This document shows positions 10,040 through 23,245 of a DNA stretch of 64,000 nucleotides, piece after piece. How positions within the stretch are numbered: position 1 is the stretch's first letter; every line of letters begins with the position of its first letter. The notes under the pieces were generated by a model. It saw nothing but the letters and a program-made list of their open reading frames with translations. It did not search any database and was not told the origin of the DNA. The position numbers were made by a program, and so were the translations under genes. Where the stretch lies: contig JAXGZO010000001.1 in NCBI GenBank assembly GCA_040776965.1, positions 1,062,275 to 1,126,274 on the forward strand, written 5' to 3'. This DNA comes from Thermoleophilia bacterium (GTDB lineage Bacteria > Actinomycetota > Thermoleophilia > UBA2241).

Positions 10040-10115
10040 GGGGGTATAGCTCAGTTGGGAGAGCGTTTGGCTGGCAGCCAAAAGGTCACCGGTTCGAGCC
10101 CGGTTACCTCCACCA
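10040..10115 (+). tRNA. tRNA-Ala (anticodon GGC)
   Basis: A 76-nt cloverleaf: acceptor GGGGGTA/TACCTCC with the diagnostic G3:U70 pair, D-arm GCTC-AGTTGGGA-GAGC, anticodon loop CTGGCAG, T-arm ACCGG-TTCGAGC-CCGGT, and an encoded CCA. Confidence 0.9.
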
Positions 10116-10445: not shown

Positions 10446-13346
10446 ATGACTATCACCGCCTACCAAGCGAAGTATTACGCCCATGAGCTTCAGCGCTCCT
10501 ACGCGAATGACCACGTCGGTAAGCTCGCAGGCCTCCTCTTTGATGCCCAAGTAGAGCCAAAACCGCATCAGATCGATGCGGCTCTCTTTGCGCTGAGAAC
10601 CTCCTACTCCCCAGGAGTAATCCTCGCCGACGAAGTAGGCCTCGGCAAGACCATTGAGGCGGGCATCGTCATCGCTCAGTTTTGGGCAGAGCGCAGGCGC
10701 CGCATTTTGATCATCTCTCCCTCAAGCCTCCGTCAACAATGGCAGCAAGAGTTGCACGAGAAATTCCTGATCCCCAGCAAGCTGCTCAACCCAAAACTCA
10801 AAACCAAACAACTTACGAACACCACTCAGCACGACAATGAAGTGCTGATTTGCTCTTATGAGTTCGCACTTCATCATGATGCCAGCCTGTTACGCCAGTG
10901 GGACTTAATTATTTGCGATGAGGCACACCGCCTTCGCAACCACTACACAGGGCGTAATAAAACACCAGAGGCAATAAGCCGAATCGTCCGTGAGGCACAT
11001 AAGACACTTCTGCTTACGGCTACCCCGCTGCAAAATCGCCTAGAAGAGCTCTACGGCCTCGTCAGCGTATTCGACCCCGACTACTTCTACTCCCTGAAGG
11101 CCTTTCGAGAGCGCTACGTCAAAGCCAAGAACCTTGGCGACAACGGCGATTTGGCCGAGCGCGTGGCCGCTATCAGCAAGCGAACACTGCGCAGAGACGC
11201 GGATAAGTACATCCAGTTCACGAAGCGCCTACCGCTTACTGTGGAGTTTATGCCAAGCCCCGAAGAGATCCGACTCTACGAGAAGGTCAATGACTACCTG
11301 CAACGCGAAAACCTCTTCGCGTTCGCCAGCTCGCAACGTCATCTAATGACGCTGATCATCCGTAAACGCCTCGGCTCATCCACCTACGCAGCCTCAAGCA
11401 CCCTGGAGAGAATCGCAGACCGACTCGAGGCGGAACTTCATACCGGCGTTCGGCGAGATAACCGTGGCGGCCTCACTGCAACCGACTTTATAGATGACGA
11501 GCTCACCGATGAGGAGCTAGAGGGGCTAGAGGAGGACAGTCTTTCCACCTCTGGGCGAGTCCAGCGTGAGCCCAACGCCGGTGAGCGTCTCAGCGGGACA
11601 ACCATTGAGGCCATGCACGCCGAAGTCGCAGAACTCCGCCACTACGCCGACTTAGCTCGCGCTATCACCGTCAATCAAAAGGCTGTAAAGCTCCATGAAG
11701 CCCTCGAGAAGGGCTTTGAGCGCCTGCGCGAGCTGGGTGCACCAGAAAAAGCGATCATCTTCACCGACTCTACAAAGACCCAGGAATACATCGCACGCTC
11801 GCTGAGCGAGTCTGGTCGCGGCGAGGGCCTGGTCTTGTTTAACGGGTCCAACACCTCTCCCCAGTCAGACAAGATCTACAAAAACTGGTTGGAGGCCAAC
11901 AAGGACGGCGACGTTATCACCAACATCCCAGCAGCAGATCGTCGCAAGGCACTTGTTGACTACTTCCGCGACCATGGCAACATCATGATCGCAACTGAAG
12001 CAGCCGCTGAAGGCATCAACCTGCAGTTCTGCTCGATGGTCGTGAACTACGATTTGCCGTGGAACCCGCAACGCGTTGAGCAGCGTATCGGGCGCACCCA
12101 CCGTTTCGGCCAGAAGTACGACGTGGTAGTCGTAAACTTCTCCAACAAAGGCAATGTGGCAGAGGCCCGCATCCTCGAGCTGCTGGCTAGCAAGTTTCAT
12201 TTGTTCGAATCCGTCTTCGATGCCAGCGACGAAGTACTCGGCGCCATCGAAGACGGGTTCGACTTCGAGAAGACCATTAATGACATCCTCAGCAACTCTC
12301 GTACCGACGCCGACATCGAACGCGCATTCAAGGAGCTTGAAGAGCAGTACGCTACTGAGATCAGCGCGGAGATGGCCGCCACTAAAGCCAAGGTATTTGA
12401 CGCCCTTGACCCAAACGTACAAGACCGCCTAAAAACCTATGACTCACAGTCCGGCGAGGTGCTCAACAAGTTCGAGCGCTTGCTCCTAGCTATCACCAAG
12501 TTCCAACTCGGTCCCTATGCAAGCTTTGAGGAGGATGGCCGTCGCTTCCTGCTGAACCAGGCACCGGTCAAAAACGTCAAGACGGGCCGCTACTACTTTA
12601 AGTCTGAGCCGCTTAAAAACGCTCACCAGTACCGCTTCGACAGCGACCTCGCCCGCTATGTCGTGGAGTCGTCTAAAGCGGCTACCACACCGAGCAGAGA
12701 GCTCACTTTCAGCCTCGGCAGCTCCGATCGCGTCGGCGCTACAGTGAGGGCGCTTGCGGGCAAATCGGGTGAGCTAACGGTCAAAATCGTCACCTTCTCA
12801 ATGAGAGCGAAAAGCGACGATCTGAGTGAGTCCTATGTGCTAGCCACCGGCCTGAGCGACGATGGTGAGCGGCTGGACCACGAACATATCGCCAACCTCC
12901 TCGACTTGGCCTGCATTACCGAGGGCCCAGAGGTAGTTATTGACGACTCCAAATTCGAGCAGTATCTGAGCGAGCGCTGCGACTACCTGCAAAAAGAAGT
13001 ACAAAGCCGCAACTCTCACTACTACGATCAACAAGAGGAGCTACTCTACCGCAACCAGGAAGACCGCCGAGCTGAATCCGAGGCCAAGATTCGCGAGTAT
13101 AAGGCAAAAGAAAAGGAAGCGCGAAGGGCCGCGAAGTGCGCCGACGACCCGATAGAGCAGCTAAAGTACAAGAAGGAAGCTCGTCGCTGGTCAGATCGTG
13201 CAGAAGAAGAAGACGAAGAAGCGCGGGCGGCCCGCAAGAAGATGCGCAAAGAAGCAGACCACTACCTCGAGCTGATCGAGCAAGCCCTCAAGGGGACGCA
13301 ACGGATCGAGCATTTGTTCACCATCCGCTGGAAGGTAGTCGCCTGA
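10446..13346 (+). CDS. SNF2/RAD54-family DEAD-like helicase (966 aa), first gene of a putative three-gene restriction-modification-like operon
   Basis: Walker A ADEVGLGKTIEAG, DEAH box IICDEAHRLRN, and a helicase-C block EGINLQFCSMVVNYDLPWNPQRVEQRIGRTHRFGQ. The C-terminus is a Lys/Glu/Arg-rich coiled-coil tail. It ends 19 nt before the methyltransferase gene. Confidence 0.85.
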   Translation: MTITAYQAKYYAHELQRSYANDHVGKLAGLLFDAQVEPKPHQIDAALFALRTSYSPGVILADEVGLGKTIEAGIVIAQFWAERRRRILIISPSSLRQQWQQELHEKFLIPSKLLNPKLKTKQLTNTTQHDNEVLICSYEFALHHDASLLRQWDLIICDEAHRLRNHYTGRNKTPEAISRIVREAHKTLLLTATPLQNRLEELYGLVSVFDPDYFYSLKAFRERYVKAKNLGDNGDLAERVAAISKRTLRRDADKYIQFTKRLPLTVEFMPSPEEIRLYEKVNDYLQRENLFAFASSQRHLMTLIIRKRLGSSTYAASSTLERIADRLEAELHTGVRRDNRGGLTATDFIDDELTDEELEGLEEDSLSTSGRVQREPNAGERLSGTTIEAMHAEVAELRHYADLARAITVNQKAVKLHEALEKGFERLRELGAPEKAIIFTDSTKTQEYIARSLSESGRGEGLVLFNGSNTSPQSDKIYKNWLEANKDGDVITNIPAADRRKALVDYFRDHGNIMIATEAAAEGINLQFCSMVVNYDLPWNPQRVEQRIGRTHRFGQKYDVVVVNFSNKGNVAEARILELLASKFHLFESVFDASDEVLGAIEDGFDFEKTINDILSNSRTDADIERAFKELEEQYATEISAEMAATKAKVFDALDPNVQDRLKTYDSQSGEVLNKFERLLLAITKFQLGPYASFEEDGRRFLLNQAPVKNVKTGRYYFKSEPLKNAHQYRFDSDLARYVVESSKAATTPSRELTFSLGSSDRVGATVRALAGKSGELTVKIVTFSMRAKSDDLSESYVLATGLSDDGERLDHEHIANLLDLACITEGPEVVIDDSKFEQYLSERCDYLQKEVQSRNSHYYDQQEELLYRNQEDRRAESEAKIREYKAKEKEARRAAKCADDPIEQLKYKKEARRWSDRAEEEDEEARAARKKMRKEADHYLELIEQALKGTQRIEHLFTIRWKVVA

Positions 13347-13365
13347 TTACGAGAGGAAGCATTCA

Positions 13366-15234
13366 ATGAGCGATGACGATTCCTTGCAAGATATCAACGA
13401 AACCCCGAGTAGCACACCGAACTTTAAAACCGAGCTGGCTGCACAACTCGCAGAGCTTATCCCCGAGGCCATTACCGATGGCAAAATCGACGTTGAAAAG
13501 CTTAAGGAACTCCTCGGCGACGATGCGGATGACGAGCGCGAACGCTTCGGTTTATTCTGGCCCGGCAAGAAGCGCGCCTTGCGCGCCGCACAGGAGCCGA
13601 CCACCGCAACGCTAAGGCCCGACTTCGAAAACTCGAAAGACTGGGATACCACCAAAAACGTCTTCATCGAGGGCGACAACCTCGAGGTACTCAAAATCTT
13701 GCAGAAGCACTATCACGGCAAGATTAAGATGATCTATATAGACCCTCCTTACAACACCGGCAGGGACTTCGTCTATGCCGATAATTACAGAGATGGGCTG
13801 AAGACTTATCTTGAGTGGACCCGCCAAGTAAACGAAGATGGTAGGAAAGTTAGCACCAATTCGGAATCGGAAGGTCGCTACCACTCAAACTGGTTAAATA
13901 TGATGTATCCGCGACTTAAGCTCGCGAGGAATTTGCTTACAGATGATGGTGTTATATTTATTTCTATTGATGATAATGAAATTGCAAATCTTCGTAGGAT
14001 TTGCGGTGAAGTATTTGGTGAATCGAACTTTATCGGACAGTTCGTTTGGGTGACAAAAAACGCAGCACGAGGTGTTCCTCCTCGGACGATGTTGATGTCG
14101 AATCATGAATATATAATCACATATGCACGAAACGCTGAGAAACTAAAATTCAAAGGCATAGAAAGAGATGCGGGCGATTTCTCCAATCCTGACAACGATC
14201 CACGAGGGCTATGGCGCTCAGAGAGCATGAAGGCCACTGGTGATCAGAATAATTACTTTACAATTAGTGATCCTTCTAGTAATCGAACTTTCCACGCGAA
14301 TTGGGCGTTTTCAGAGTCGAGAATTGAAAAGATGATCAATGATCGACTTATAATATTTCCAGAAGAAGAGAGCGGAACTCCCCGTCAGAAGAAATTTATT
14401 GATAGCTATTTAAACGAGAGGAAAGCCTTTGTAACAAATCTTGGATGGTATTCAACAGAAAATGAAACTAAATCTCTGATGTCGCTCTTTGGCAATAAAA
14501 AAGTATTTGACTTCCCGAAACCTCTAGCGCTGCTGACTTTTCTTCTTAATCAGTCGACATCAGATGGTATTATTCTTGACTTCTTCGCTGGATCCGGGTC
14601 GATAGCGCATGCAGTGCTTGAGCAAAACTCGAAGGACAATGGAAAGCGGCAATACATTTTAGTTCAGCTGCCGGAACCAGTAAGTAAAGAGTCAACTGCG
14701 TATAGGGAGGGTTTTCGTACAATTACTGCAATCAGCCGACAGCGAATTAATGCCGCGAGAGAGCGTATCAACAGCGTCAGGGGGGGTCAGCTCGAACTTG
14801 ATAGTTCTCAATTAGATACTGGTTTCCGCTCGTACCGGCTAACCGACACCAACTTCACCAAATGGCGCGCCACCAGCGAAACGGATGCATCCACACTGGA
14901 GCAGCACCTCCTAGGCCTGCGCGACAGCGCTGACGACACCGCAACCCCAGATGCCCTCCTGACCGAGATCCTCCTCAAGCAAGGCTACTCGCTCACCGAG
15001 CAGATAGGCGACACTGAGATCTCTGGCCTTAAACTCAAGACGGTAGGCGAAGGCTTGCTTCTCGCCTATCTCGACGAGCACACTAAGCCAACTCTCGAGC
15101 AGCTGCGCGCGATAGTCGCCGAGAAACCCGCCCGTCTCATCATCCTCGAGGACGCCCTCGACGGCGATGATGAGCTCAAGACGAATCTGGTTCAGGAGTG
15201 TAAGTCACGCGGCGTAGAGCTCTGGACGGCTTGA
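13366..15234 (+). CDS. N6-adenine DNA methyltransferase, Type III Mod-like (beta class)
   Basis: Motif IV IYIDPPYNTGRDFVY comes before motif I ILDFFAGSGSIAHA; this is beta-class order with a central TRD-like region. It is adjacent to, and translationally coupled with, the Res-like gene (TGAtATG). Confidence 0.85.
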   Translation: MSDDDSLQDINETPSSTPNFKTELAAQLAELIPEAITDGKIDVEKLKELLGDDADDERERFGLFWPGKKRALRAAQEPTTATLRPDFENSKDWDTTKNVFIEGDNLEVLKILQKHYHGKIKMIYIDPPYNTGRDFVYADNYRDGLKTYLEWTRQVNEDGRKVSTNSESEGRYHSNWLNMMYPRLKLARNLLTDDGVIFISIDDNEIANLRRICGEVFGESNFIGQFVWVTKNAARGVPPRTMLMSNHEYIITYARNAEKLKFKGIERDAGDFSNPDNDPRGLWRSESMKATGDQNNYFTISDPSSNRTFHANWAFSESRIEKMINDRLIIFPEEESGTPRQKKFIDSYLNERKAFVTNLGWYSTENETKSLMSLFGNKKVFDFPKPLALLTFLLNQSTSDGIILDFFAGSGSIAHAVLEQNSKDNGKRQYILVQLPEPVSKESTAYREGFRTITAISRQRINAARERINSVRGGQLELDSSQLDTGFRSYRLTDTNFTKWRATSETDASTLEQHLLGLRDSADDTATPDALLTEILLKQGYSLTEQIGDTEISGLKLKTVGEGLLLAYLDEHTKPTLEQLRAIVAEKPARLIILEDALDGDDELKTNLVQECKSRGVELWTA

Positions 15235-15235
15235 T

Positions 15236-18214
15236 ATGGAATTTAAGTTCGATGCTCACCAGCAGTACCAGCAGGACGCGATCGCGGCTGTAGTCGATCT
15301 CTTTGCGGGTCAGCTCGCCGATGCCGCCTCGCTGACGACCATGCTTCGCGGCGTCATACCCGACTCGGGCGATCAAATGAGCGCCTTCGAGATAGCCAGT
15401 GAGGTCGGCGCGGTCGGCAATAATTTACTCCTCGACGACGAGGCCATACTGCAGAATCTGCAAGCCGTGCAAGACCGCAACGGCCTCGAGGTGGTCGATG
15501 AGCTGGCTGGAGGAGCGCTGGACTTCGACATTGAGATGGAGACCGGCACCGGCAAGACGTACGTCTATCTGCGCACCATCTTCGAGCTGGCCAAGAGCTA
15601 CCGCTTCACCAAGTTCATTATCCTCGTGCCGAGCGTCGCCATCCGCGAGGGCGTGACCACGAGCATCAAGCTGATGACCGAGCACCTCAACGACCTCTAC
15701 GCCACGCCCTTCGACTCGTTCGTCTACAGCGGCAGCACACCAGAGGAGGTTCAGTCCTTCGCCACGTCCACGAGCGTCCAGATCATGGTGATGACTATCG
15801 GCTCATTGCGCGGAGACAATAATACTCGCGTTATTCACCAAACCCGTGACAAGCTCAACGGGCTACGCCCTATCGACTACCTGAAGGCCACGCAGCCCGT
15901 GGTCATTATGGACGAGCCGCAAAATATGGAGTCGCTGCTGAGCAAGTCCGCGGTAGGCGAGCTGAACCCCCTGTGCACACTGCGCTACTCAGCCACACAC
16001 CGCAAAACCCGCAATGTCGTGTACCGGCTCGACCCGGTCGACGCTCACGACCTGGGATTAGTTAAGCAGATCGTAGTGGCCGAAGCCCTGCAGCAAGGTA
16101 CCGATGCCGCACCGTACCTAAAGCTTCAATCCGTCCGTAGCGATAAGGGCTTTCTCGCCCGTATGGAGCTAGCTATGCGCTCTCAACGAGACGGCGTGAT
16201 TCAACGCAAGACGGTGAGCGTTAAAAAGGGTCAAGACCTCGCCGTCCTCACGGGCAACTCCGCCTACAATGGCTGGTGGCTCAACGAGCTGAGCATCGAT
16301 CCTGAATCGGTCGAGCTCTTCCCCTACGGATGGCTTCAGGTCGGCGAGACTATCGGCGGCTCTAGCGATTCCATCTACCGCGAGATGATCCGCGAGACCA
16401 TTCGCGAGCACCTTCGCAAGGAGGCAATGCTCCGAGCGCACGGCGTTAAAGTGCTCAGTCTATTTTTCGTCGATAAAGTCGCACGTTTCCTCGGCGAGGG
16501 CTACAACAACGACACCGCTAACGGCGACTTCGTAACATGGTTCGACGAGCTCTTCGAAGAGGAGCGAGCCAGAGACCAGCGATGGGTAGCCTCCCTGCCG
16601 CTCGATCCGATCGAGTACCGCCGCGCCTACTTCTCGGCAATCAAAGGTACAAAAGGGCGACGCGACACCTTTAAAGACACCAACGGCACCTCTAAAGTCG
16701 ATGATGGCGCCTACGACCTCATCATGCGCGACAAAGCGCGGCTACTGGATGAGAGCGAGCCGGTGCGATTTATCTTCAGCCACTCGGCGCTCCGCGAGGG
16801 CTGGGACAACCCCAACGTCTTTCAAATCTGTGCCCTGCGGGAGATGGGCGAGCCCACAGAACGCCGTCAGACTATCGGGCGCGGGTTACGCCTACCGGTT
16901 AACCAGTCCGGCGAGCGAGTGCCCAACAAGAGCATCGCTCAACTCACCGTCGTGGCCAATGAGTCCTACCGCGAGTTCGCGAGCAGCCTGCAGAGGGAGT
17001 ACCGCGATTCCGGCGTCAGCATCGGCGTAGTGCGTCCCGGTGAGTTCGCCAAGGTCCCCACCACCGATGATGCCACCGGCGAGGAGCGGCGCCTGGGCTT
17101 CCAGGGCTCTCAGTTGATATGGGGTGAGCTGGTTGAGCGTGGCTTTCTCGACAAAGAGGGCAACCTCACCGCCAGCTTTCGCCCCGAGACCCTCGGCTTC
17201 ACACTCGGCCCAGCGCCGAACTTCTTTTGGCCGCAAAACGAGATCATCCACGTTATGCGGAACTCTCGTATCGAACGCATGGTCAAGACTCAGCGCGAGC
17301 GCGTAACCCGCAAGCTGAACAAAGAGGTCTACACATCGCCGTGGTTCGAGGACTTCTGGCGCACGATCTCACGGAGGACCACCTATCGCGTCGCCCTTAA
17401 GCGCGACGAGATCATTCATAACGCTGTCGCCAAAATTAAGGCCGAACAGCCTATCCCGCCCCTACGAGTCCAGGTCACTCGCGCGGGCGTCAAACTAATG
17501 CGTGGCGGTACCAAAACCTCTGAGACAGTCACCCGCTCGGCCGAATTGTCGGGCACCTACCAGCTGCCCGACATCATTAGCGAGCTGCAAGAAGCCACCT
17601 CACTCACCCGCAAAACGCTGGTGGATGTATTGACTCGCTCGGGCAAGCTTGATGAGTTCATCGGTAACCCCAATGACTTCATCGCGATGGTTAAACGCAA
17701 CCTACAAAACGTGGTGGCCACTGCTGTTCAGGAGGGCATCCAGTACGAGAGAATCGACGGCTACATCTATGAACTGCGCGAGCTACAGGCTGATGGAGCT
17801 GAGGCGCGAGACCTCTTCCTCGACCGCGTCTATAAGGTCGAGCACACCGACAAGACGGACTTCGACTATATCCAAATCGACTCGGAGGGGGCGAACGCAC
17901 CGGAGCGTCAGTTCGCTGAGAAGCTCGACTCGCGTGAGGACGTAAAGTTCTTCATGAAGCTGCCCGACAAGTTCAAGATCGAGACACCCGTGGGCCCCTA
18001 CAACCCCGACTGGGCGATTATCAAGCAGGATGAGAGCGGCGAGGATCGCATCTACCTGATCCGCGAGACCAAGAGCACGCTGGACGAGTCCCAACGCCGC
18101 CCAAGCGAGAACGCCAAGATCAAAGCCGCAGAGGAGCACTTCAAACAGCTAGGCATCGGCACCGAAGCTATCCCTGGCTACGCTGTTAGTGTGCCCGGCA
18201 ATTGGAGATTGTGA
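15236..18214 (+). CDS. Type III restriction endonuclease Res-like subunit (N-terminal SF2 helicase, C-terminal PD-(D/E)xK nuclease)
   Basis: 992 aa. Walker A METGTGKTYV, motif II VIMDEPQN, and a C-terminal nuclease motif PYNPDWAII...IYLIRETK. The start overlaps the mod stop. Confidence 0.8.
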   Translation: MEFKFDAHQQYQQDAIAAVVDLFAGQLADAASLTTMLRGVIPDSGDQMSAFEIASEVGAVGNNLLLDDEAILQNLQAVQDRNGLEVVDELAGGALDFDIEMETGTGKTYVYLRTIFELAKSYRFTKFIILVPSVAIREGVTTSIKLMTEHLNDLYATPFDSFVYSGSTPEEVQSFATSTSVQIMVMTIGSLRGDNNTRVIHQTRDKLNGLRPIDYLKATQPVVIMDEPQNMESLLSKSAVGELNPLCTLRYSATHRKTRNVVYRLDPVDAHDLGLVKQIVVAEALQQGTDAAPYLKLQSVRSDKGFLARMELAMRSQRDGVIQRKTVSVKKGQDLAVLTGNSAYNGWWLNELSIDPESVELFPYGWLQVGETIGGSSDSIYREMIRETIREHLRKEAMLRAHGVKVLSLFFVDKVARFLGEGYNNDTANGDFVTWFDELFEEERARDQRWVASLPLDPIEYRRAYFSAIKGTKGRRDTFKDTNGTSKVDDGAYDLIMRDKARLLDESEPVRFIFSHSALREGWDNPNVFQICALREMGEPTERRQTIGRGLRLPVNQSGERVPNKSIAQLTVVANESYREFASSLQREYRDSGVSIGVVRPGEFAKVPTTDDATGEERRLGFQGSQLIWGELVERGFLDKEGNLTASFRPETLGFTLGPAPNFFWPQNEIIHVMRNSRIERMVKTQRERVTRKLNKEVYTSPWFEDFWRTISRRTTYRVALKRDEIIHNAVAKIKAEQPIPPLRVQVTRAGVKLMRGGTKTSETVTRSAELSGTYQLPDIISELQEATSLTRKTLVDVLTRSGKLDEFIGNPNDFIAMVKRNLQNVVATAVQEGIQYERIDGYIYELRELQADGAEARDLFLDRVYKVEHTDKTDFDYIQIDSEGANAPERQFAEKLDSREDVKFFMKLPDKFKIETPVGPYNPDWAIIKQDESGEDRIYLIRETKSTLDESQRRPSENAKIKAAEEHFKQLGIGTEAIPGYAVSVPGNWRL

Positions 18215-18396: not shown

Positions 18397-20697
18397 ATGC
18401 TACAAAATGACTGGCAGATCCATCATCTTGAAAAAATTGTAAACATAGCGAGCAATCGCTATGACAGCGCGCTGAACGTTGATCTAAGTTATAAAACAGT
18501 TTTTTCAGCATTAGGCAGAACAAGTGAGTTTCAAAAAAAACTCCTAGCGATGAGTAATCGGCTTAGAACTGTACTTGATGAAGTGTCGAAATATAATAAG
18601 TCTACTGAAATTGAACGCCTCATTAACGCCTCAAAATCTGTTGCACTCGGAATACGACGGGTGTCGGATAGCGCTGCTGATACCACTCTAGATTACTCAC
18701 AAATTATCAATGATGCCAGATCTGGAATCAATTTAGCTGAGATGATCAGAAAGTCACGAAACGATCAATGTTGTAAAAAGAAATCAATATATCCATTAGA
18801 TTTTTCGCTCGATAATGTGAAGCAGGTAGCAGATTTACTCGCCGAAGCTCTGAATCTATGTGATGGGAAAGAAGCTAAAGCAGCAAACGAACAGATGCTG
18901 CTTCTGACGGGGTCGGCTGGAGCAGGTAAAACTCACATGCTGGTAGATCTAGCACTCAAACGCAATGTTGAAAAACTCACTTCAATCGTTCTCTTTGGGG
19001 ATCAATTCAGCGCACTAAAAGATATATGGCAATTTACAACAAAACTGGGCACCAAAAATAGATACTCTCTCATTGAAGTTCTTGATAAGCTGGAAACAAT
19101 TGGGAGATCATCAAAAGCACGAACAATGCTTCTTATTGATGGGATAAATGAAACTTCACCATGCAGGATCTGGCAAAATGGACTTGAGTCGCTAAAGGCA
19201 AAACTACTCGATCGACCAAACGTTTGTGTAGTTATTTCTATACGAAATGGATTTCAAGATTTAGTAGCGACCCAGAGAACCATCAATGAAACCATGACGG
19301 TTGAACATTATGGGTTTGGCAAAGATATATGGAAAGCTGTTCAGCTATTTTTTGGACACTACCGAGTACAATGGCCAGAAATTCCACTTCTTGGGCCAGA
19401 GTTCTCAAATCCACTGTTTTTAAAACTATTCTCAGAGGCATTTTCAGGTAAAACACCAAGAAGCTTCCGTGGGCACGAGGGTGGGACCCACATATTTGAG
19501 GCCTATGTAAAGAAGGCCGATCAAAAGATCAATAAGGATCTTGGGATCTCTGGAAGAGCTCATATCAACTGCTGGAATGATCTCATTAAACCCATTGCAG
19601 TCTGGATGGGAGAGAATAAAGTCCAAGAAATTCCAGCCGATAAGGCAGTTGATATCGCAGAAACAGCCTACCCCGGTTTGGGAGATCAAGCACTCACCTT
19701 AATGGAGCGTCATGCCCTCATCACGAAGTCTGCTCGAGTAGATAAGTTGAGTGGAAATCATGACTATTTCTATCGCTTTTCGTACCAGAAATTCAGTGAT
19801 CATTTAATAGTCCGCTTCCTACTCAACAGCCACCTTGACTCCAAATCTTCAGTGTCCGAAAAGAAATTCCTTTCAGAGATTTCGCTGGAACAAATCGTAA
19901 GACCAGATGAGAGGCTAGGACTACTAGAGGCGCTTTCTGCGCAAATACCAGAACGCAAAAATGGGATTTGCGAACTGATTGACTATATCTCAGAAGATAT
20001 GGTGCGATACGAAAAGGTAATCGACGCATTTCTCGATAGCTTAGTCTGGCGAAAGCCAGAGGCGATCGGTAAGAGTGCAATTAACTACATAAATAATGTT
20101 GTTCTCAAAAATGAACGATGCACACATAATTTCTACGAGGTTCTTCTCTCCGTCGCAAGTATACCGAATTATAAACTCAATGCACGAACATTGCACAAAT
20201 TACTGGAGGAATCATCACTTACCGATAGAGATCAGATATGGACGATGTGGCTTAATCATAACTATAGAGATGAAGGAAATGCTGTTGACCGCCTTGTTTC
20301 CTGGGCTCGAAGAGCACCAGGTCGCGATAAGGTAAATCCAGAAAGTGCGCTATTAACCGCGATAGCGATATCTTGGTTTTTCACTTCATCAAATCGTTTT
20401 CTAAGAGACGATGCGACAAAAGCTGTCATCGCACTGCTTGAGCATCATCCTGGCGTAGTGGCTGATCTAATTCGTATGTTTGAGACGGTAAACGACCCAT
20501 ATGTGCTTGAGCGCGTACTGTGCTCCGCTTATGGAGCCTTAGCTCGAAATCCCCAGGTTGATGCTCTTAAAGATGCTTCTATTACTTTACTGGATGGGTT
20601 TTTCAAAAGAAACGACTGCACTCATCTTCTGAGTCGCGACTACGCGCGTGGAATCGTCGAGCTGGCGATGAAAACTGGAGTTCTTAATGGAGGATGA
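18397..20697 (+). CDS. P-loop NTPase, STAND-like (766 aa). Upstream part of a 1311-codon frame interrupted by a TGA at 20695-20697
   Basis: Walker A LLLTGSAGAGKTHMLVDL at about residue 165 and Walker B-like TMLLIDGINETS. A long alpha-helical C-terminal region follows. The AT-rich composition is unlike the host. Confidence 0.6.
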   Translation: MLQNDWQIHHLEKIVNIASNRYDSALNVDLSYKTVFSALGRTSEFQKKLLAMSNRLRTVLDEVSKYNKSTEIERLINASKSVALGIRRVSDSAADTTLDYSQIINDARSGINLAEMIRKSRNDQCCKKKSIYPLDFSLDNVKQVADLLAEALNLCDGKEAKAANEQMLLLTGSAGAGKTHMLVDLALKRNVEKLTSIVLFGDQFSALKDIWQFTTKLGTKNRYSLIEVLDKLETIGRSSKARTMLLIDGINETSPCRIWQNGLESLKAKLLDRPNVCVVISIRNGFQDLVATQRTINETMTVEHYGFGKDIWKAVQLFFGHYRVQWPEIPLLGPEFSNPLFLKLFSEAFSGKTPRSFRGHEGGTHIFEAYVKKADQKINKDLGISGRAHINCWNDLIKPIAVWMGENKVQEIPADKAVDIAETAYPGLGDQALTLMERHALITKSARVDKLSGNHDYFYRFSYQKFSDHLIVRFLLNSHLDSKSSVSEKKFLSEISLEQIVRPDERLGLLEALSAQIPERKNGICELIDYISEDMVRYEKVIDAFLDSLVWRKPEAIGKSAINYINNVVLKNERCTHNFYEVLLSVASIPNYKLNARTLHKLLEESSLTDRDQIWTMWLNHNYRDEGNAVDRLVSWARRAPGRDKVNPESALLTAIAISWFFTSSNRFLRDDATKAVIALLEHHPGVVADLIRMFETVNDPYVLERVLCSAYGALARNPQVDALKDASITLLDGFFKRNDCTHLLSRDYARGIVELAMKTGVLNGG

Positions 20698-20823
20698 GCG
20701 GAATCAGCGAAACCTCCGTACGGTTCCCCTTTTCCGAAAAATGTACCCAGCAAAGATGAGATTAAAAAAAAATACGCAGATAATAAAGATCCCGTAAGCA
20801 ACTACAAATCGATATGGTATTCG

Positions 20824-22332
20824 GTGATGCATGGAGACTTCGGTAGATACATCATCGGGACAAATTCCGAAAGTATTCCATGGAGCAATCGTCCTCTTGG
20901 AGACTATATCTCTCCAGCGCCGGAGGAACGATGGGAAGATTTTTTGCTAACACTATCGATAGAGGCACGGCAAGCACTCAAAGCGTGGGAAGAATCGAAA
21001 ATCACAGACGTGATGAAGTTTAACAGCAGTAAACTACAGAGTGACAACACAGGCGAGCCGAATGAAATCACGCCTCAAGAGCAATACATGGAAGTCCTAC
21101 TACTTAGGCTACTCACGGAGGAGCAACGATCTACGCTTAAGTCTACTAACACCTTAACACAGGATTGCGCTGATAGCTCCTTTGATCTAAGAATTGCACA
21201 GTCGTGGATCTTTTTACGATGCATCCAACTAGGATTGACTAAGGATCGATTTTGGAAGAGCGATAGAGATCATTATTCTACGTTGAGTTATAACGATAAA
21301 TGTAAAATAGAACGCATAGGCAAAAAGTACCAGTGGATAGCGTATTATGAGTTCCTGGGCTTACTCGCCGATAACTATGCCCTGAAGCCGCCTTGGAACT
21401 CAAGTAAATCACCTGAGTACCTTGGTCCATGGCTGGACCTGCTTCGCGACATCGATCCAACGTGTTTGACTGATGGGCTCTCCGATGAGGAGCTTCCCCC
21501 CATCTGCAGCCAGCCCAGATACGATCCAGATGCATTCTCTTTTGATCATGAGAAGTGGCTCCTCACACTTGAGGATCTAATAGATCCCCGCCAGCTAATT
21601 GAGCGCTCCGATGAGAATGGCGAGTCCTGGTTAACCCTCGCTGGATTCTTTGAATGGGAATCTTTATCTGCACCAGGAATAAGCCGTTCCTCAGTCCTAC
21701 ATCGCTATGTCTGCTGCCAACTGCAGGGCTACCTAATACCGATCGAAGAAGCATCTATCTTTATTAGTCTAGCAAGATCACAAAACTTCAAGGAACTATG
21801 GATTCACAGGAATTATTCATCACTTGATGTCTATCTACGAGAATACCCGGATTCCATAGCATTTACCGACATGCTTAAGTCATCAGAAAACGATTCTTCT
21901 TCTCTCAGCGAAGACATGAAAATACCAATACTTGCTGCCACTAATAGCTATTCATCAATCTTAACTGATAGAGATTGCTCGGTTAAGAATCCGTTTACGA
22001 TTACACTTCCTTCATATAAGCTAGTTAAAGAAATGAATATGGTGCAAGGAATCAAAGACGGTAGCTGGACAATTAACGGACAGACCGTTGCATTTGATCC
22101 ATCAGTCGATTCGAAGTCACATAGCATGCTTCTTATTCGTCGATCAAATCTAGAATTTTATCTACAAAAAGCAGGCCTTGCGCTTGTCTGGACTGTAATT
22201 GCCTCTAAGGCGCTTAACGGCAGATGGAATGAGCTCAACGACAGACCAGCAAGAACCGAAGTGAATGCTGTATATAAGATGCAAACCAGGGGTATTACTG
22301 GCCGCATGTGGAAAAGAGAAGCGTCAAGCTAG
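20824..22332 (+). CDS. Hypothetical protein (502 aa); downstream continuation of the interrupted NTPase frame
   Basis: An ORF in low-GC DNA. I recognise no motifs. It is in frame with the upstream NTPase ORF, and its stop coincides with the low-GC/high-GC boundary. Confidence 0.45.
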   Translation: MMHGDFGRYIIGTNSESIPWSNRPLGDYISPAPEERWEDFLLTLSIEARQALKAWEESKITDVMKFNSSKLQSDNTGEPNEITPQEQYMEVLLLRLLTEEQRSTLKSTNTLTQDCADSSFDLRIAQSWIFLRCIQLGLTKDRFWKSDRDHYSTLSYNDKCKIERIGKKYQWIAYYEFLGLLADNYALKPPWNSSKSPEYLGPWLDLLRDIDPTCLTDGLSDEELPPICSQPRYDPDAFSFDHEKWLLTLEDLIDPRQLIERSDENGESWLTLAGFFEWESLSAPGISRSSVLHRYVCCQLQGYLIPIEEASIFISLARSQNFKELWIHRNYSSLDVYLREYPDSIAFTDMLKSSENDSSSLSEDMKIPILAATNSYSSILTDRDCSVKNPFTITLPSYKLVKEMNMVQGIKDGSWTINGQTVAFDPSVDSKSHSMLLIRRSNLEFYLQKAGLALVWTVIASKALNGRWNELNDRPARTEVNAVYKMQTRGITGRMWKREASS

Positions 22333-22334
22333 AA

Positions 22335-23245
22335 CGCAACGCATATCAGAAGGCGCCAGCACTATCCGCGCGTCGTTTGAGCCCTACTACCGCACCACGA
22401 TCCTCAGCGAGGAGACCGACCCCAACAAACTCCACGACCTCAAGGCTGACCTCGACGGCTACCAGATCTACGCCACCGAGGATGTACAAACACTGACGGA
22501 GCGCTACCTCTCCGGCGCCGACCGCGACGAGCTCGACCCTATTCTAGACACCTGCGTCGCCCTCTACACCGAGGAGTTCGACGAGGACGACCAGGTCGAC
22601 TTCAAGAGCAAGGCGAAGGCCTTTATCCGCACCTACGACTTCCTCGCCTCCATCCTCCCCTACGCGAACGTCGAGTGGGAGAAGCTCTCGATCTTCCTCA
22701 ACTTCCTCGTACCCAAACTACCCGCACCGGTGGAGCAGGACCTCGCCAGGGGCATCCTGGAGTCTATCGACATGGAGAGCTACCGCGTAGAGAAGCGGGC
22801 CGCCATCGCCATCGAGCTAGCCGACGAAGACGCGGAGATAGGCCCGGTGCCGGCCCAGGCGGGCGGCCGCCGGGCGGAGCCGGAGCTAGACATCCTCTCC
22901 ACCATTATCGAGGAGTTCAACGACCAGTTCGGCGACATCCCCTGGACCGACGAGGACCGCATACAGCGCCTCATAACGGAGGAGATCCCGCAGAAGGTCG
23001 CCGCCGACCCAGCCTACCGCAACGCGCAGCGCAACAACGACGCGCAAAACGCGCGTATCGAGCACAACAGGGCGCTCGAAAGCGCGATGAGTGAGCTCGT
23101 CAGCGTAAACCTCGAGCTCCTCAAGCACTTCAGCGACAACCCGGGCTTTAAGCGCTGGCTCTCCGACACCACTTTTAACATGACGTATGGAGGACCGCAG
23201 GGCGAGGGGCGTAAAGCGAGACATCTCGCGATCAACCCTGAGTAA
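22335..23245 (+). pseudogene. hsdR: 3' fragment of a Type I restriction enzyme R subunit gene (HsdR C-terminal domain), with the 5' part missing
   Basis: A high-GC frame reading ...IRASFEPYYRTTILSEETDPNKLHDL...KAFIRTYDFLASILPYANVEWEKLSIFLNFLV... resembles the conserved C-terminal (DUF3387-type) region of HsdR. There is no upstream nuclease or helicase part and no proper start. It abuts the AT-rich cassette. Confidence 0.5.

What the first reader, a model, noticed from the sequence alone, without database searches (positions are those of the whole stretch)
18397..22332. A 1311-codon STAND-like NTPase reading frame interrupted by a single in-frame TGA
The stop of ORF 18397..20697 (TGA at 20695-97) and the start of ORF 20824..22332 are in the same frame. 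All 42 codons between them are open in roughly 40% GC DNA, where random frames accumulate stops quickly, so a 126-nt open stretch in the same frame is unlikely by chance. The upstream part has Walker A LLLTGSAGAGKTH and Walker B LLIDGINE after a ~165-aa N-terminal domain. That is a STAND / antiviral-ATPase-like layout. The joined product of about 1310 aa matches the size of Avs/STAND-type defence proteins (NTPase followed by a large sensor region). Three readings are possible: a recent nonsense pseudogene; programmed UGA read-through; or a genuinely split two-component system.
Basis: seen in the sequence. Interest (0 to 1): 0.75.

Follow-up and report, generated by a model that had tools for sequence, protein, structure and literature searches.

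The report
Avs2 phage-sensor gene, recently broken
The two reading frames are one horizontally acquired anti-phage sensor gene of the known Avs2 family, cut by a single, probably recent stop-codon mutation: most likely an ordinary dead defence gene, from an Avs2 branch that lacks the usual killing domain.

Summary
ORF 18397..20697 and ORF 20824..22332 share a frame, and one TGA (20695-97) and 42 open codons lie between them. Both halves match Avs2 (AVAST type 2), the STAND NTPase that senses the phage large terminase. Together they cover the whole Avs2 core without a gap. The six closest homologs (46-57% identity) are single proteins of 1318-1323 aa. The 42-codon gap encodes the family-invariant PPY..P motif, so it is coding sequence. 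The closest homolog has CGA-GCG-GAA where the window has TGA-GCG-GAA, so one C-to-T change would explain the stop. The TGA appears in assemblies of three sequencing runs, which argues against a sequencing error. Neighbouring genes use TGA as their stop. I found no SECIS-like hairpin and no ribosome-binding site or start codon that would keep the invariant motif. The 544 downstream codons carry no further stop or frameshift, so the mutation is recent. The gene has 43% GC in a 68% GC genome and lies in a defence island next to tRNA-Ala. Verdict: most likely a recent nonsense pseudogene of a known family. One side point: this branch has no N-terminal effector domain. Interest is low.

The parts
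18397..20694 (+). 5' part of the Avs2 gene (residues 1-766). It holds the helical extension (about 1-165), the STAND NTPase (Walker A at nt 18895-18936, Walker B at nt 19129-19152) and the first part of the helical sensor.
   Evidence: PADLOC Avs2 PDLC02164, E=1.8e-183, profile positions 171-938. NCBIfam NF041813 Avs2, 551 bits, profile positions 5-763. Weak Pfam NACHT and AAA_22 hits. Aligns to EcAvs2 (PDB 9o4e) from residue 165.
20695..20697 (+). In-frame TGA (codon 767), the only interruption of the gene.
   Evidence: It aligns with Arg in the closest homolog and Asp or Glu in the others. The closest homolog reads CGA GCG GAA where the window reads TGA GCG GAA. It is present in three Logan run assemblies. 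It maps to about Glu938 of EcAvs2 (hand count on the alignment).
20698..20823 (+). 42 open codons between the TGA and the next in-frame start. This is former coding sequence that encodes the conserved AESAKPPYGSPFPKNVPSKDEIKKKY... segment.
   Evidence: Invariant or nearly invariant family columns P773, P774, Y775, P780, P784, I806, W807 and S809 lie here. The NCBIfam profile resumes at position 772 directly after the TGA.
20824..22332 (+). The rest of the Avs2 sensor (helical repeats and the C-terminal sensor), ending at TAG 22330-22332. It includes the conserved ERIGKKYQWIA motif (21310-21342) and a degenerate FKELWIHR motif (21787-21810) where the family has FMGRWMPE.
   Evidence: PADLOC Avs2, E=3.1e-92, profile positions 987-1496 of 1504. 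phmmer to 9o4e residues 1171-1469. Deviations at invariant columns. Coordinates.
10040..10115 (+). tRNA-Ala(GGC) at the left edge of the low-GC island that carries the gene.
   Evidence: GC drops from about 0.67 to 0.53-0.57 just after it.
10446..18214 (+). Neighbouring defence genes of the island: a DrmD-like SNF2 helicase (10446-13346), a type III methyltransferase (13366-15234) and a type III restriction enzyme (15236-18214).
   Evidence: Pfam. PADLOC DrmD E=4.6e-174, MTase_III E=1.8e-188, REase_III E=1.1e-258. All three end in TGA.

Best explanation
Window 18397-22332 is one gene for an Avs2-type antiviral STAND NTPase that a single nonsense mutation has inactivated.

Shown by alignment: the intact ancestor was a protein of about 1311 aa made only of the Avs2 core. 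That core is a helical extension, a STAND ATPase with intact Walker A and B motifs, a helical repeat domain and a C-terminal sensor.

Known for the family: in E. coli Avs2 this core binds the ATPase domain of the phage large terminase, with a bridging ATP, and assembles into a tetramer. The tetramer brings the N-termini together to fire an N-terminal effector (PMC13601566, PMC11564622).

Inferred for this window: a C-to-T change turned an Arg codon (CGA) in a variable surface loop into TGA. Translation now stops after residue 766. The product keeps the ATPase but lacks the 544 residues that align with every EcAvs2 residue reported to contact terminase or the bridging ATP (D981, T1128, R1130, R1132, W1266, E1362, E1364, E1444, E1462). 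It therefore cannot sense phage in the Avs2 way.

The mutation is recent, because nothing else in the gene is broken. The gene itself arrived recently by horizontal transfer into a defence island beside tRNA-Ala. This branch of Avs2 has no fused effector, so what the intact protein did after sensing is unknown.
For: 1. Family assignment:
- Both halves hit the same Avs2 models, end to end and without a gap: PADLOC PDLC02164 positions 171-938 and 987-1496, and NCBIfam NF041813 positions 5-763 and 772-1317.
- A profile of the branch matches the solved EcAvs2 chain 9o4e_A, residues 165-1477, at E=1.8e-204.

2. One gene in relatives:
- The six closest homologs are single proteins of 1318-1323 aa that cover 100% of the joined query.
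- They are called as single genes on their contigs.
- About 101 of the 150 best representatives found with the post-TGA part are at least 1000 aa long, with the match at their C-terminal end. The short hits start at scattered offsets, as contig fragments do.

3. The gap between the ORFs encodes family-invariant residues.

4. Origin of the stop: the closest homolog has CGA GCG GAA where the window has TGA GCG GAA.

5. Not an error: two run assemblies are 100% identical to the window over 12 kb. A third, indel-prone assembly differs only by homopolymer deletions. All three keep the TGA.

6. TGA is a real stop in this organism: the SNF2, Mod and Res genes and several host genes end in TGA.

7. 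No rescue signal:
- The first in-frame start is 42 codons downstream and has no Shine-Dalgarno-like sequence before it.
- The gene caller used for the two error-free Logan contigs did not call the downstream half.
- RNA folding after the UGA is no better than in shuffled sequence (z=-1.28).
- Rfam finds nothing there.

8. Recent event:
- 5.3% of single substitutions in the 544 downstream codons would create a stop, so P(no new stop) is only 0.11 after 40 substitutions, and there is none.
- The ratio of N-part to C-part identity is the same as among intact homologs.

9. Horizontal transfer:
- The gene has GC 0.43 and GC3 0.40, against GC3 0.91 in the host leuS.
- A relative with 85% identical LeuRS lacks the island.
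Against: - All three run assemblies may come from the same sample series, so an intact allele at low frequency in the population is not excluded.
- No closer relative than 57% identity exists in the databases searched, so the ancestral codon is inferred from one distant homolog in a variable column.
- UGA is the leakiest stop codon (general knowledge), so a small amount of full-length protein cannot be ruled out from sequence.
- The downstream part deviates from family-invariant residues more often than the upstream part: 9 of 58 columns against 2 of 84, Fisher p=0.0076. This could mean a longer period of relaxed constraint than I infer, or a sensor that had already changed or failed before the stop arose.
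Confidence: 0.85

Rival explanations
1. Leaky or programmed UGA decoding: near-cognate read-through, a suppressor tRNA or selenocysteine gives full-length Avs2 at a low, possibly tuned level.
For: The frame stays open and conserved for 544 codons after the TGA. UGA is the leakiest stop codon (general knowledge). Low expression of a potentially toxic sensor would be plausible.
Against: - There is no SECIS-like hairpin: folding has z=-1.28, and the weak stem includes the UGA itself.
- Rfam finds no RNA family in the region, and the only tRNA in the window is tRNA-Ala.
- The column is a variable loop holding Arg, Asp or Glu in homologs, not a Cys or Sec site.
- No homolog examined has a stop at this position.
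- Neighbouring genes terminate at TGA.
- The base after the stop is G. From my recollection of E. coli work, this is not the leakiest context; I did not check this here.
Confidence: 0.05
2. A genuine two-piece Avs2: the ATPase part and the sensor part are made as separate proteins that assemble, as reported for a split-TPR variant of Avs1.
For: A split-TPR Avs1 variant is mentioned in PMC13601566. The downstream part is intact over 502 to 544 codons.
Against: - The first in-frame ATG, GTG or TTG after the TGA is 42 codons downstream. Starting there would delete the invariant PPY..P..P segment.
- No Shine-Dalgarno-like sequence precedes it.
- The downstream half was not called as a gene on the two error-free Logan contigs.
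- All close homologs are single genes.
- Representatives show no discrete class of about 540 aa.
- The one 539-aa hit I examined is itself a broken gene, with an extra in-frame TAG and a frameshift.
Confidence: 0.04
3. A sequencing or assembly artefact: the real codon is a sense codon such as CGA, GGA or TGG.
For: The source appears to be a metagenome-assembled genome: the best named LeuRS relative is a Thermoleophilia MAG at 76% identity. Consensus errors do occur in such assemblies.
Against: Assemblies of three different runs all carry TGA. Two of them are identical to the window over 12 kb. The third differs only by deletions of one or two bases inside short same-base runs, so it appears to be an independent, indel-prone read set. 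The TGA itself is not in a homopolymer (GGAGGATGAGCGG).
Confidence: 0.03

Closest known systems
Avs2 (AVAST type 2) antiviral STAND NTPase, e.g. EcAvs2 (PDB 9O4E) and KpAvs2
   Same: Homology runs the full length of the Avs2 core: helical extension, STAND ATPase with Walker A and B, helical repeat domain and C-terminal sensor. The ERIGKKYQW motif is conserved, and I estimate that the residues that bind the bridging ATP in EcAvs2 lie near it. The gene sits in a defence island.
   Different: There is no N-terminal effector domain. The alignment starts at EcAvs2 residue 165, and homologs start at the same point. The window copy is cut by a TGA at the position of about EcAvs2 Glu938. The family-wide FMGRWMPE motif is degenerate (FKELWIHR). 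The summed NCBIfam score (551 + 340 = 891 bits) is below the 1000-bit cut-off, as is the score of the intact homolog P0001 (932.6 bits).
Effector-less Avs2-core proteins from Actinomycetota MAGs (P0001-P0006, 1318-1323 aa) and the 1373-1401 aa group (P0009-P0023)
   Same: They have the same architecture and the same N-terminal start (MLPxxWQ..HL). The first group is 46-57% identical to the joined window protein over 100% of its length.
   Different: They are uninterrupted single ORFs. The Actinomycetota genes have about 60% GC, like their hosts, while the window copy has 43% GC. They keep FMGRWMPE and the other invariant residues.
Split-TPR variant of Avs1 (mentioned in PMC13601566)
   Same: It is a terminase-sensing STAND whose sensor is divided between two polypeptides, which is a precedent for the 'true split' reading.
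   Different: It belongs to a different family. In the window there is no start codon or ribosome-binding site at the break, and no relatives share the break.
L017, another broken Avs2 homolog (Logan contig from SRR5585387)
   Same: It is an Avs2-like gene interrupted in frame by a stop codon.
   Different: It is only about 27% identical. It has two lesions: a TAG in place of the conserved Glu of the GPEF motif, and a frameshift about 25 codons before the site equivalent to the window's TGA. It is therefore a more decayed copy or a poorer assembly.

Membership tests
Avs2 (AVAST type 2) | [quoted passage not shown] | tested here: met
   GSAGAGKT (residues 172-179) and LLIDGINE (residues 245-252) are present and lie in conserved family columns. 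Pfam NACHT and AAA_22 hits are weak and below cut-off.
Avs2 (AVAST type 2) | Avs2-specific sensor (helical extension, helical repeat domain and C-terminal sensor) homologous to characterised Avs2 | tested here: met
   PADLOC Avs2 E=1.8e-183 and 3.1e-92. Profile against the PDB chain 9o4e_A E=1.8e-204, residues 165-1477. The C-terminal 311 aa alone give E=3.8e-15.
Avs2 (AVAST type 2) | Score above the curated NCBIfam equivalog cut-off (NF041813, 1000 bits) | tested here: not met
   The two halves score 551 and 340 bits, 891 together. The intact homolog P0001 scores 932.6 bits. This is a divergent branch just below the cut-off.
Avs2 (AVAST type 2) | N-terminal effector domain (Mrr-like nuclease, protease or other) fused to the sensor | tested here: not met
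   The protein starts at the position of EcAvs2 residue 165 and PADLOC profile position 171. The closest homologs start at the same place. Only 183 nt lie between the upstream Res gene and the ATG.
Avs2 (AVAST type 2) | Single uninterrupted polypeptide of about 1300-1600 aa | tested here: not met
   The window copy has an in-frame TGA at codon 767. The feature is met in all close homologs.
Avs2 (AVAST type 2) | Recognition of the phage large terminase, oligomerisation and anti-phage defence | not testable with these tools
   This needs co-expression toxicity and plaque assays. From the alignment, the truncated product lacks the region that aligns with all EcAvs2 terminase and ATP contact residues listed in PMC13601566.
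Avs2 (AVAST type 2) | Location among other defence genes or on mobile DNA | tested here: met
   The gene lies next to a type III restriction-modification system and a DrmD-like helicase, in a low-GC island beside tRNA-Ala. Homologs sit next to restriction-modification, GmrSD, integrase and IS110 genes.
Selenoprotein gene (UGA = Sec) | SECIS hairpin directly downstream of the UGA, and Cys or Sec in homologs at that column | tested here: not met
   Folding z=-1.28. No Rfam hit. Homologs have Arg, Asp or Glu.

The most novel reading that the evidence does not exclude
The break is not a dead end. In an Avs2 branch that has no fused effector, and so must signal in a way not yet described (for example by trapping terminase or recruiting a partner in trans), the UGA copy could still work. 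It might work through low-level read-through, or as a two-piece ATPase-plus-sensor, as reported for split-TPR Avs1. Separately from the stop codon, the effector-less Avs2 core branch itself is conserved as full-length ORFs, at 43-75% pairwise identity within the closest group and 29-34% to the 1373-1401 aa group. That suggests a working sensor whose output is unknown.
Probability: 0.05. Interest if true: 0.6.

Novelty: new member of a known kind. Interest (0 to 1): 0.2.

Why it matters
As a stop-codon story it matters little. It adds one more example of a defence gene that was acquired by transfer and quickly lost, and annotation pipelines should mark it as an Avs2 pseudogene rather than two hypothetical proteins. 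The more useful by-product is the branch it belongs to. Here Avs2 cores of about 1320-1400 aa begin directly at the helical extension and have no effector domain. In the families tested so far, deleting or mutating the effector abolished cell death (PMC13581612). A conserved effector-less branch therefore raises the question of how, or whether, it stops phage. Intact relatives such as P0001 or P0003 would be the proteins to test, not this copy.

Tried and rejected
- **Alternative genetic code (UGA = Trp or Gly).** Rejected: neighbouring and host genes end in TGA, and the host has about 68% GC.
- **Selenocysteine or a structured read-through signal.** Rejected: no significant fold and no Rfam family other than a tRNA.
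- **Separate translation of the C-terminal half.** Rejected: the first in-frame start is 42 codons downstream, has no Shine-Dalgarno sequence, and would remove invariant residues.
- **Long neutral decay of the downstream half.** I considered this because the downstream half deviates at 9 of 58 family-invariant columns, against 2 of 84 upstream. I rejected it as the main cause. Drift large enough to explain those changes would almost certainly have created further stops. Six of the nine changes also cluster within residues 1106-1138. The N/C identity ratio matches that of intact homologs.
- **Search for a near-identical intact allele.** Nothing was found in any of these:
  - the protein word search (best hit 57% identity);
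  - two genome-contig scans (one search found none; one search found three loci, two at 47-48% identity and one at 27%);
  - an exact pattern with N at the mutated base, in metagenome contigs and viral contigs;
  - plasmids and phages by tblastn (at most 29-30% identity).
- **Attachment-site repeats of the tRNA-Ala 3' end at the right border of the island.** None found.
- **A conserved partner (trans effector) gene.** In the P0001 and P0002 loci, the start of the Avs2 gene overlaps the end of a DUF2357/PDDEXK_7 gene that follows an AAA+ gene hitting PADLOC PDC-M26A. This pair is absent from the window and from the P0003, P0006, P0021 and P0023 loci. I therefore treat it as a neighbouring system, not a partner.
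- **Papers I could not read.** Gao et al. 2022 (PMC10028730) and the 2026 Avs2-trypsin preprint are not held. I could not check whether effector-less Avs2 has already been described.
Full report
**Observation**

- ORF 18397..20697 (ATG start, 766 aa) ends at TGA 20695-97.
- The next in-frame start is GTG 20824, followed directly by ATG 20827. That ORF ends at TAG 22330-32 (502 aa).
- 20824-18397 = 3x809, so the frames are the same, and the 42 codons between the ORFs are open.
- The joined frame has 1311 sense codons and one internal stop.
- Walker A (GSAGAGKT, residues 172-179) and Walker B (LLIDGINE, residues 245-252) are present.

The open gap is not statistically striking on its own. P(42 open codons) is 0.074 from the gene's base composition, and 8.4% of inter-stop runs in the gene's five non-coding frames are at least that long. 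Homology carries the argument.

**What it is**

Both halves hit the same Avs2 models in consecutive order.
- PADLOC PDLC02164 matches at profile positions 171-938 (E=1.8e-183) and 987-1496 of 1504 (E=3.1e-92).
- NCBIfam NF041813 'AVAST type 2 anti-phage system protein Avs2' matches at positions 5-763 (551 bits). It resumes at 772-1317 (340 bits) with the residues directly after the TGA.
- A profile of the window protein and its eight closest relatives matches the solved E. coli Avs2 chain (PDB 9o4e_A, 1484 aa) over residues 165-1477 at E=1.8e-204.
- Plasmid-borne relatives at 25-29% identity are annotated avs2.

According to PMC13601566, Avs2 senses the ATPase domain of the phage large terminase. 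[quoted passage not shown] Avs2 then forms a tetramer that brings the N-termini together. In KpAvs2 the N-terminal Mrr-like nuclease then degrades DNA (PMC11564622).

**One gene or two**

In a search of 5.8 billion protein clusters, the six best full-length hits (P0001-P0006) are single proteins of 1318-1323 aa. They cover 100% of the joined query at 46-57% identity and are called as single genes on their contigs.

In the alignments the TGA falls in a variable loop column. The closest homolog has Arg there and the other seven have Asp or Glu. The 42-codon gap carries P773, P774, Y775, P780, P784, I806, W807 and S809, all invariant or nearly invariant. The gap is therefore coding sequence, and the two ORFs were one gene.

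A full HMMER scan of 1.84 billion representatives with the 544 residues after the TGA found 1880 relatives. About 101 of the best 150 are at least 1000 aa long, with the match at their C-terminal end. The shorter hits begin at scattered offsets, as contig-end fragments do, so there is no discrete class of about 540 aa. I inspected one 539-aa hit that starts near the equivalent site (P0387, locus L017). It is itself a broken gene: it has an in-frame TAG in place of the conserved Glu of the GPEF motif and a frameshift about 25 codons before the equivalent site.

**How the stop arose**

The closest homolog reads GAA CGA GCG GAA at the position where the window reads GGA TGA GCG GAA. A single C-to-T transition in an Arg codon is the simplest origin. 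This is an inference from one relative at 57% identity in a variable column.

**Is the TGA real, and is it a stop in this organism?**

The exact 766-aa product is on record from two Logan run assemblies (SRR27558878 and SRR27558879). Both are 100% identical to the window over 12 kb. A third assembly (SRR27560945) differs from the window only by deletions of one or two bases inside short same-base runs, so it appears to come from a different, indel-prone read set. All three carry the TGA, which is not in a homopolymer. The runs may come from one sample series, so this excludes a sequencing error but not a population polymorphism.

The SNF2, Mod and Res genes next door and several host genes end in TGA. 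The host has about 68% GC, and its LeuRS is closest to uncultured Actinomycetota; the best named hit is a Thermoleophilia MAG at 76% identity. A reassigned UGA is therefore not credible.

**Rescue mechanisms**

- The RNA after the UGA folds no better than shuffled sequence (z=-1.28), and the weak stem includes the UGA itself.
- Rfam reports only the tRNA-Ala in the whole window.
- The first in-frame start after the stop lies 42 codons downstream. It has no Shine-Dalgarno-like sequence, and starting there would remove invariant residues.
- The downstream half was not called as a gene on the two error-free Logan contigs.
- A split-TPR Avs1 variant exists in the literature, so a split sensor is possible in principle. 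Nothing here supports it.

**Age of the lesion**

5.3% of all single substitutions in the 544 downstream codons would create a stop. The chance of no new stop falls to 0.11 after 40 substitutions and 0.013 after 80. There is no second stop and no frameshift. The ratio of N-part to C-part identity is the same as among intact homologs: 58% and 55% to P0001, against 71% and 68% between P0001 and P0002. The nonsense mutation is therefore recent.

One thing needs explaining. I counted columns that are identical in all the other aligned sequences. The window protein deviates at 2 of 84 such columns before the stop (C346S and L658I). It deviates at 9 of 58 after it: L789I, F914L, W1106C, W1125L, G1133E, M1136I, P1137H, E1138R and G1276R. 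Fisher's exact test gives p=0.0076. Six of the nine changes cluster at residues 1106-1138. They include the near-universal FMGRWMPE motif, which reads FKELWIHR here and corresponds to EcAvs2 residues 1299-1306. Given the limit on drift set by the stop-codon calculation, most of these changes probably predate the TGA. The C-terminal sensor of this lineage had already diverged, or was already impaired.

**Consequence for the protein**

By alignment the TGA corresponds to about Glu938 of EcAvs2 (position counted by hand). [quoted passage not shown] The 766-aa product keeps the helical extension, the ATPase and part of the helical domain, but it cannot form the binding pocket. This is an inference from homology.

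**Context**

The host DNA has 64-73% GC. A low-GC island starts just after tRNA-Ala(GGC) at 10040-10115. It holds:
- a DrmD-like SNF2 helicase (10446-13346);
- a type III Mod (13366-15234);
- a type III Res (15236-18214);
- the Avs2 gene.

The first three genes have 41-60% GC. The Avs2 gene has 43% GC and GC3 0.40, against 0.91 for leuS. The GC content returns to host level right after 22332. A relative whose LeuRS is 85% identical has different genes between leuS and the STAS/SecDF genes, and no such island. The Avs2 gene is thus a recent, unameliorated import, probably from a low-GC donor. Its closest known relatives are 60% GC genes in Actinomycetota MAGs.

**The effector-less branch**

The window protein and P0001-P0006 all start at the same place (MLxxxWQ..HL), which aligns with EcAvs2 residue 165 and PADLOC profile position 171. 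So do the four members of the 1373-1401 aa group included in the alignment; the rest of that group cover 97-99% of the query. They have no N-terminal effector domain. Other Avs2 hits in the same search carry PNP, caspase-like, trypsin-like or hydrolase domains.

No partner gene is conserved. In two loci the Avs2 start overlaps the end of a DUF2357/PDDEXK_7 gene that follows an AAA+ gene matching PADLOC PDC-M26A. In four other loci and in the window that pair is absent. In the Avs families tested in PMC13581612, removing or mutating the effector abolished cell death. How this branch acts after sensing is therefore open. I could not read Gao et al. 2022 to check whether such forms have already been described.

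**Verdict**

The best explanation is a recent nonsense pseudogene of a divergent, effector-less Avs2 in a horizontally acquired defence island (confidence about 0.85). The rival readings together take about 0.12:
- read-through, 0.05;
- true split, 0.04;
- sequencing artefact, 0.03.

It is a new member of a known kind, and the interest is low (0.2). The only open biological question concerns the effector-less Avs2 branch as a whole, not this copy.

Noticed in passing
window 10446-18214: A DrmD-like SNF2 helicase gene (PADLOC DrmD E=4.6e-174; NCBIfam DISARM_DrmD_b 575.6 bits, below the 950-bit cut-off) sits directly upstream of a type III Mod/Res pair. No drmA, drmB or drmC is present. It looks like a type III restriction-modification system with an accessory SNF2 helicase rather than DISARM.
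   Followed up: partly
window 14001-14500: Inside the type III methyltransferase gene the GC content falls to 0.41, against 0.48-0.58 in the flanking windows. This may be a swapped target-recognition segment.
   Followed up: no
window 10040-10115 and 22333-22500: tRNA-Ala(GGC) marks the left edge of the low-GC island, and the GC content returns to host level right after the Avs2 stop codon. I found no integrase and no direct repeat of the tRNA end, so the way the island was inserted is unclear.
   Followed up: partly
window 21700-21810 and 22207-22227: The window's Avs2 has replaced residues that are otherwise family-invariant in the C-terminal sensor: W1106C, W1125L, FMGRWMPE to FKELWIHR, and G1276R. 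The upstream 766 residues deviate at only two such columns, both conservatively.
   Followed up: partly
window 18526-18533 and 20766-20774: An A8 run and an A9 run lie inside the Avs2 frame. The indel-prone run assembly L010 has deletions at both. These are potential slippage sites, but both have the in-frame length in the window.
   Followed up: partly
window 22265-23245: A 326-aa ORF of host-like GC overlaps the last 68 nt of the Avs2 gene. It was called as a gene on the Logan contigs and has no Pfam, PADLOC or NCBIfam match.
   Followed up: partly
L003 2073-8001 and L011 524-6014: In the loci of the two closest homologs, the start of the effector-less Avs2 gene overlaps the end of a DUF2357/PDDEXK_7 (McrC-like) gene. 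That gene follows an AAA+ gene of 973-1129 aa that hits PADLOC PDC-M26A, and a gene of about 310 aa. The pair could be a linked nuclease system, but it is absent from the other loci.
   Followed up: partly
L017 170-4767: This is another Avs2 homolog broken into three ORFs. It has an in-frame TAG in place of the conserved Glu of the GPEF motif and a frameshift about 25 codons before the position equivalent to the window's TGA.
   Followed up: yes
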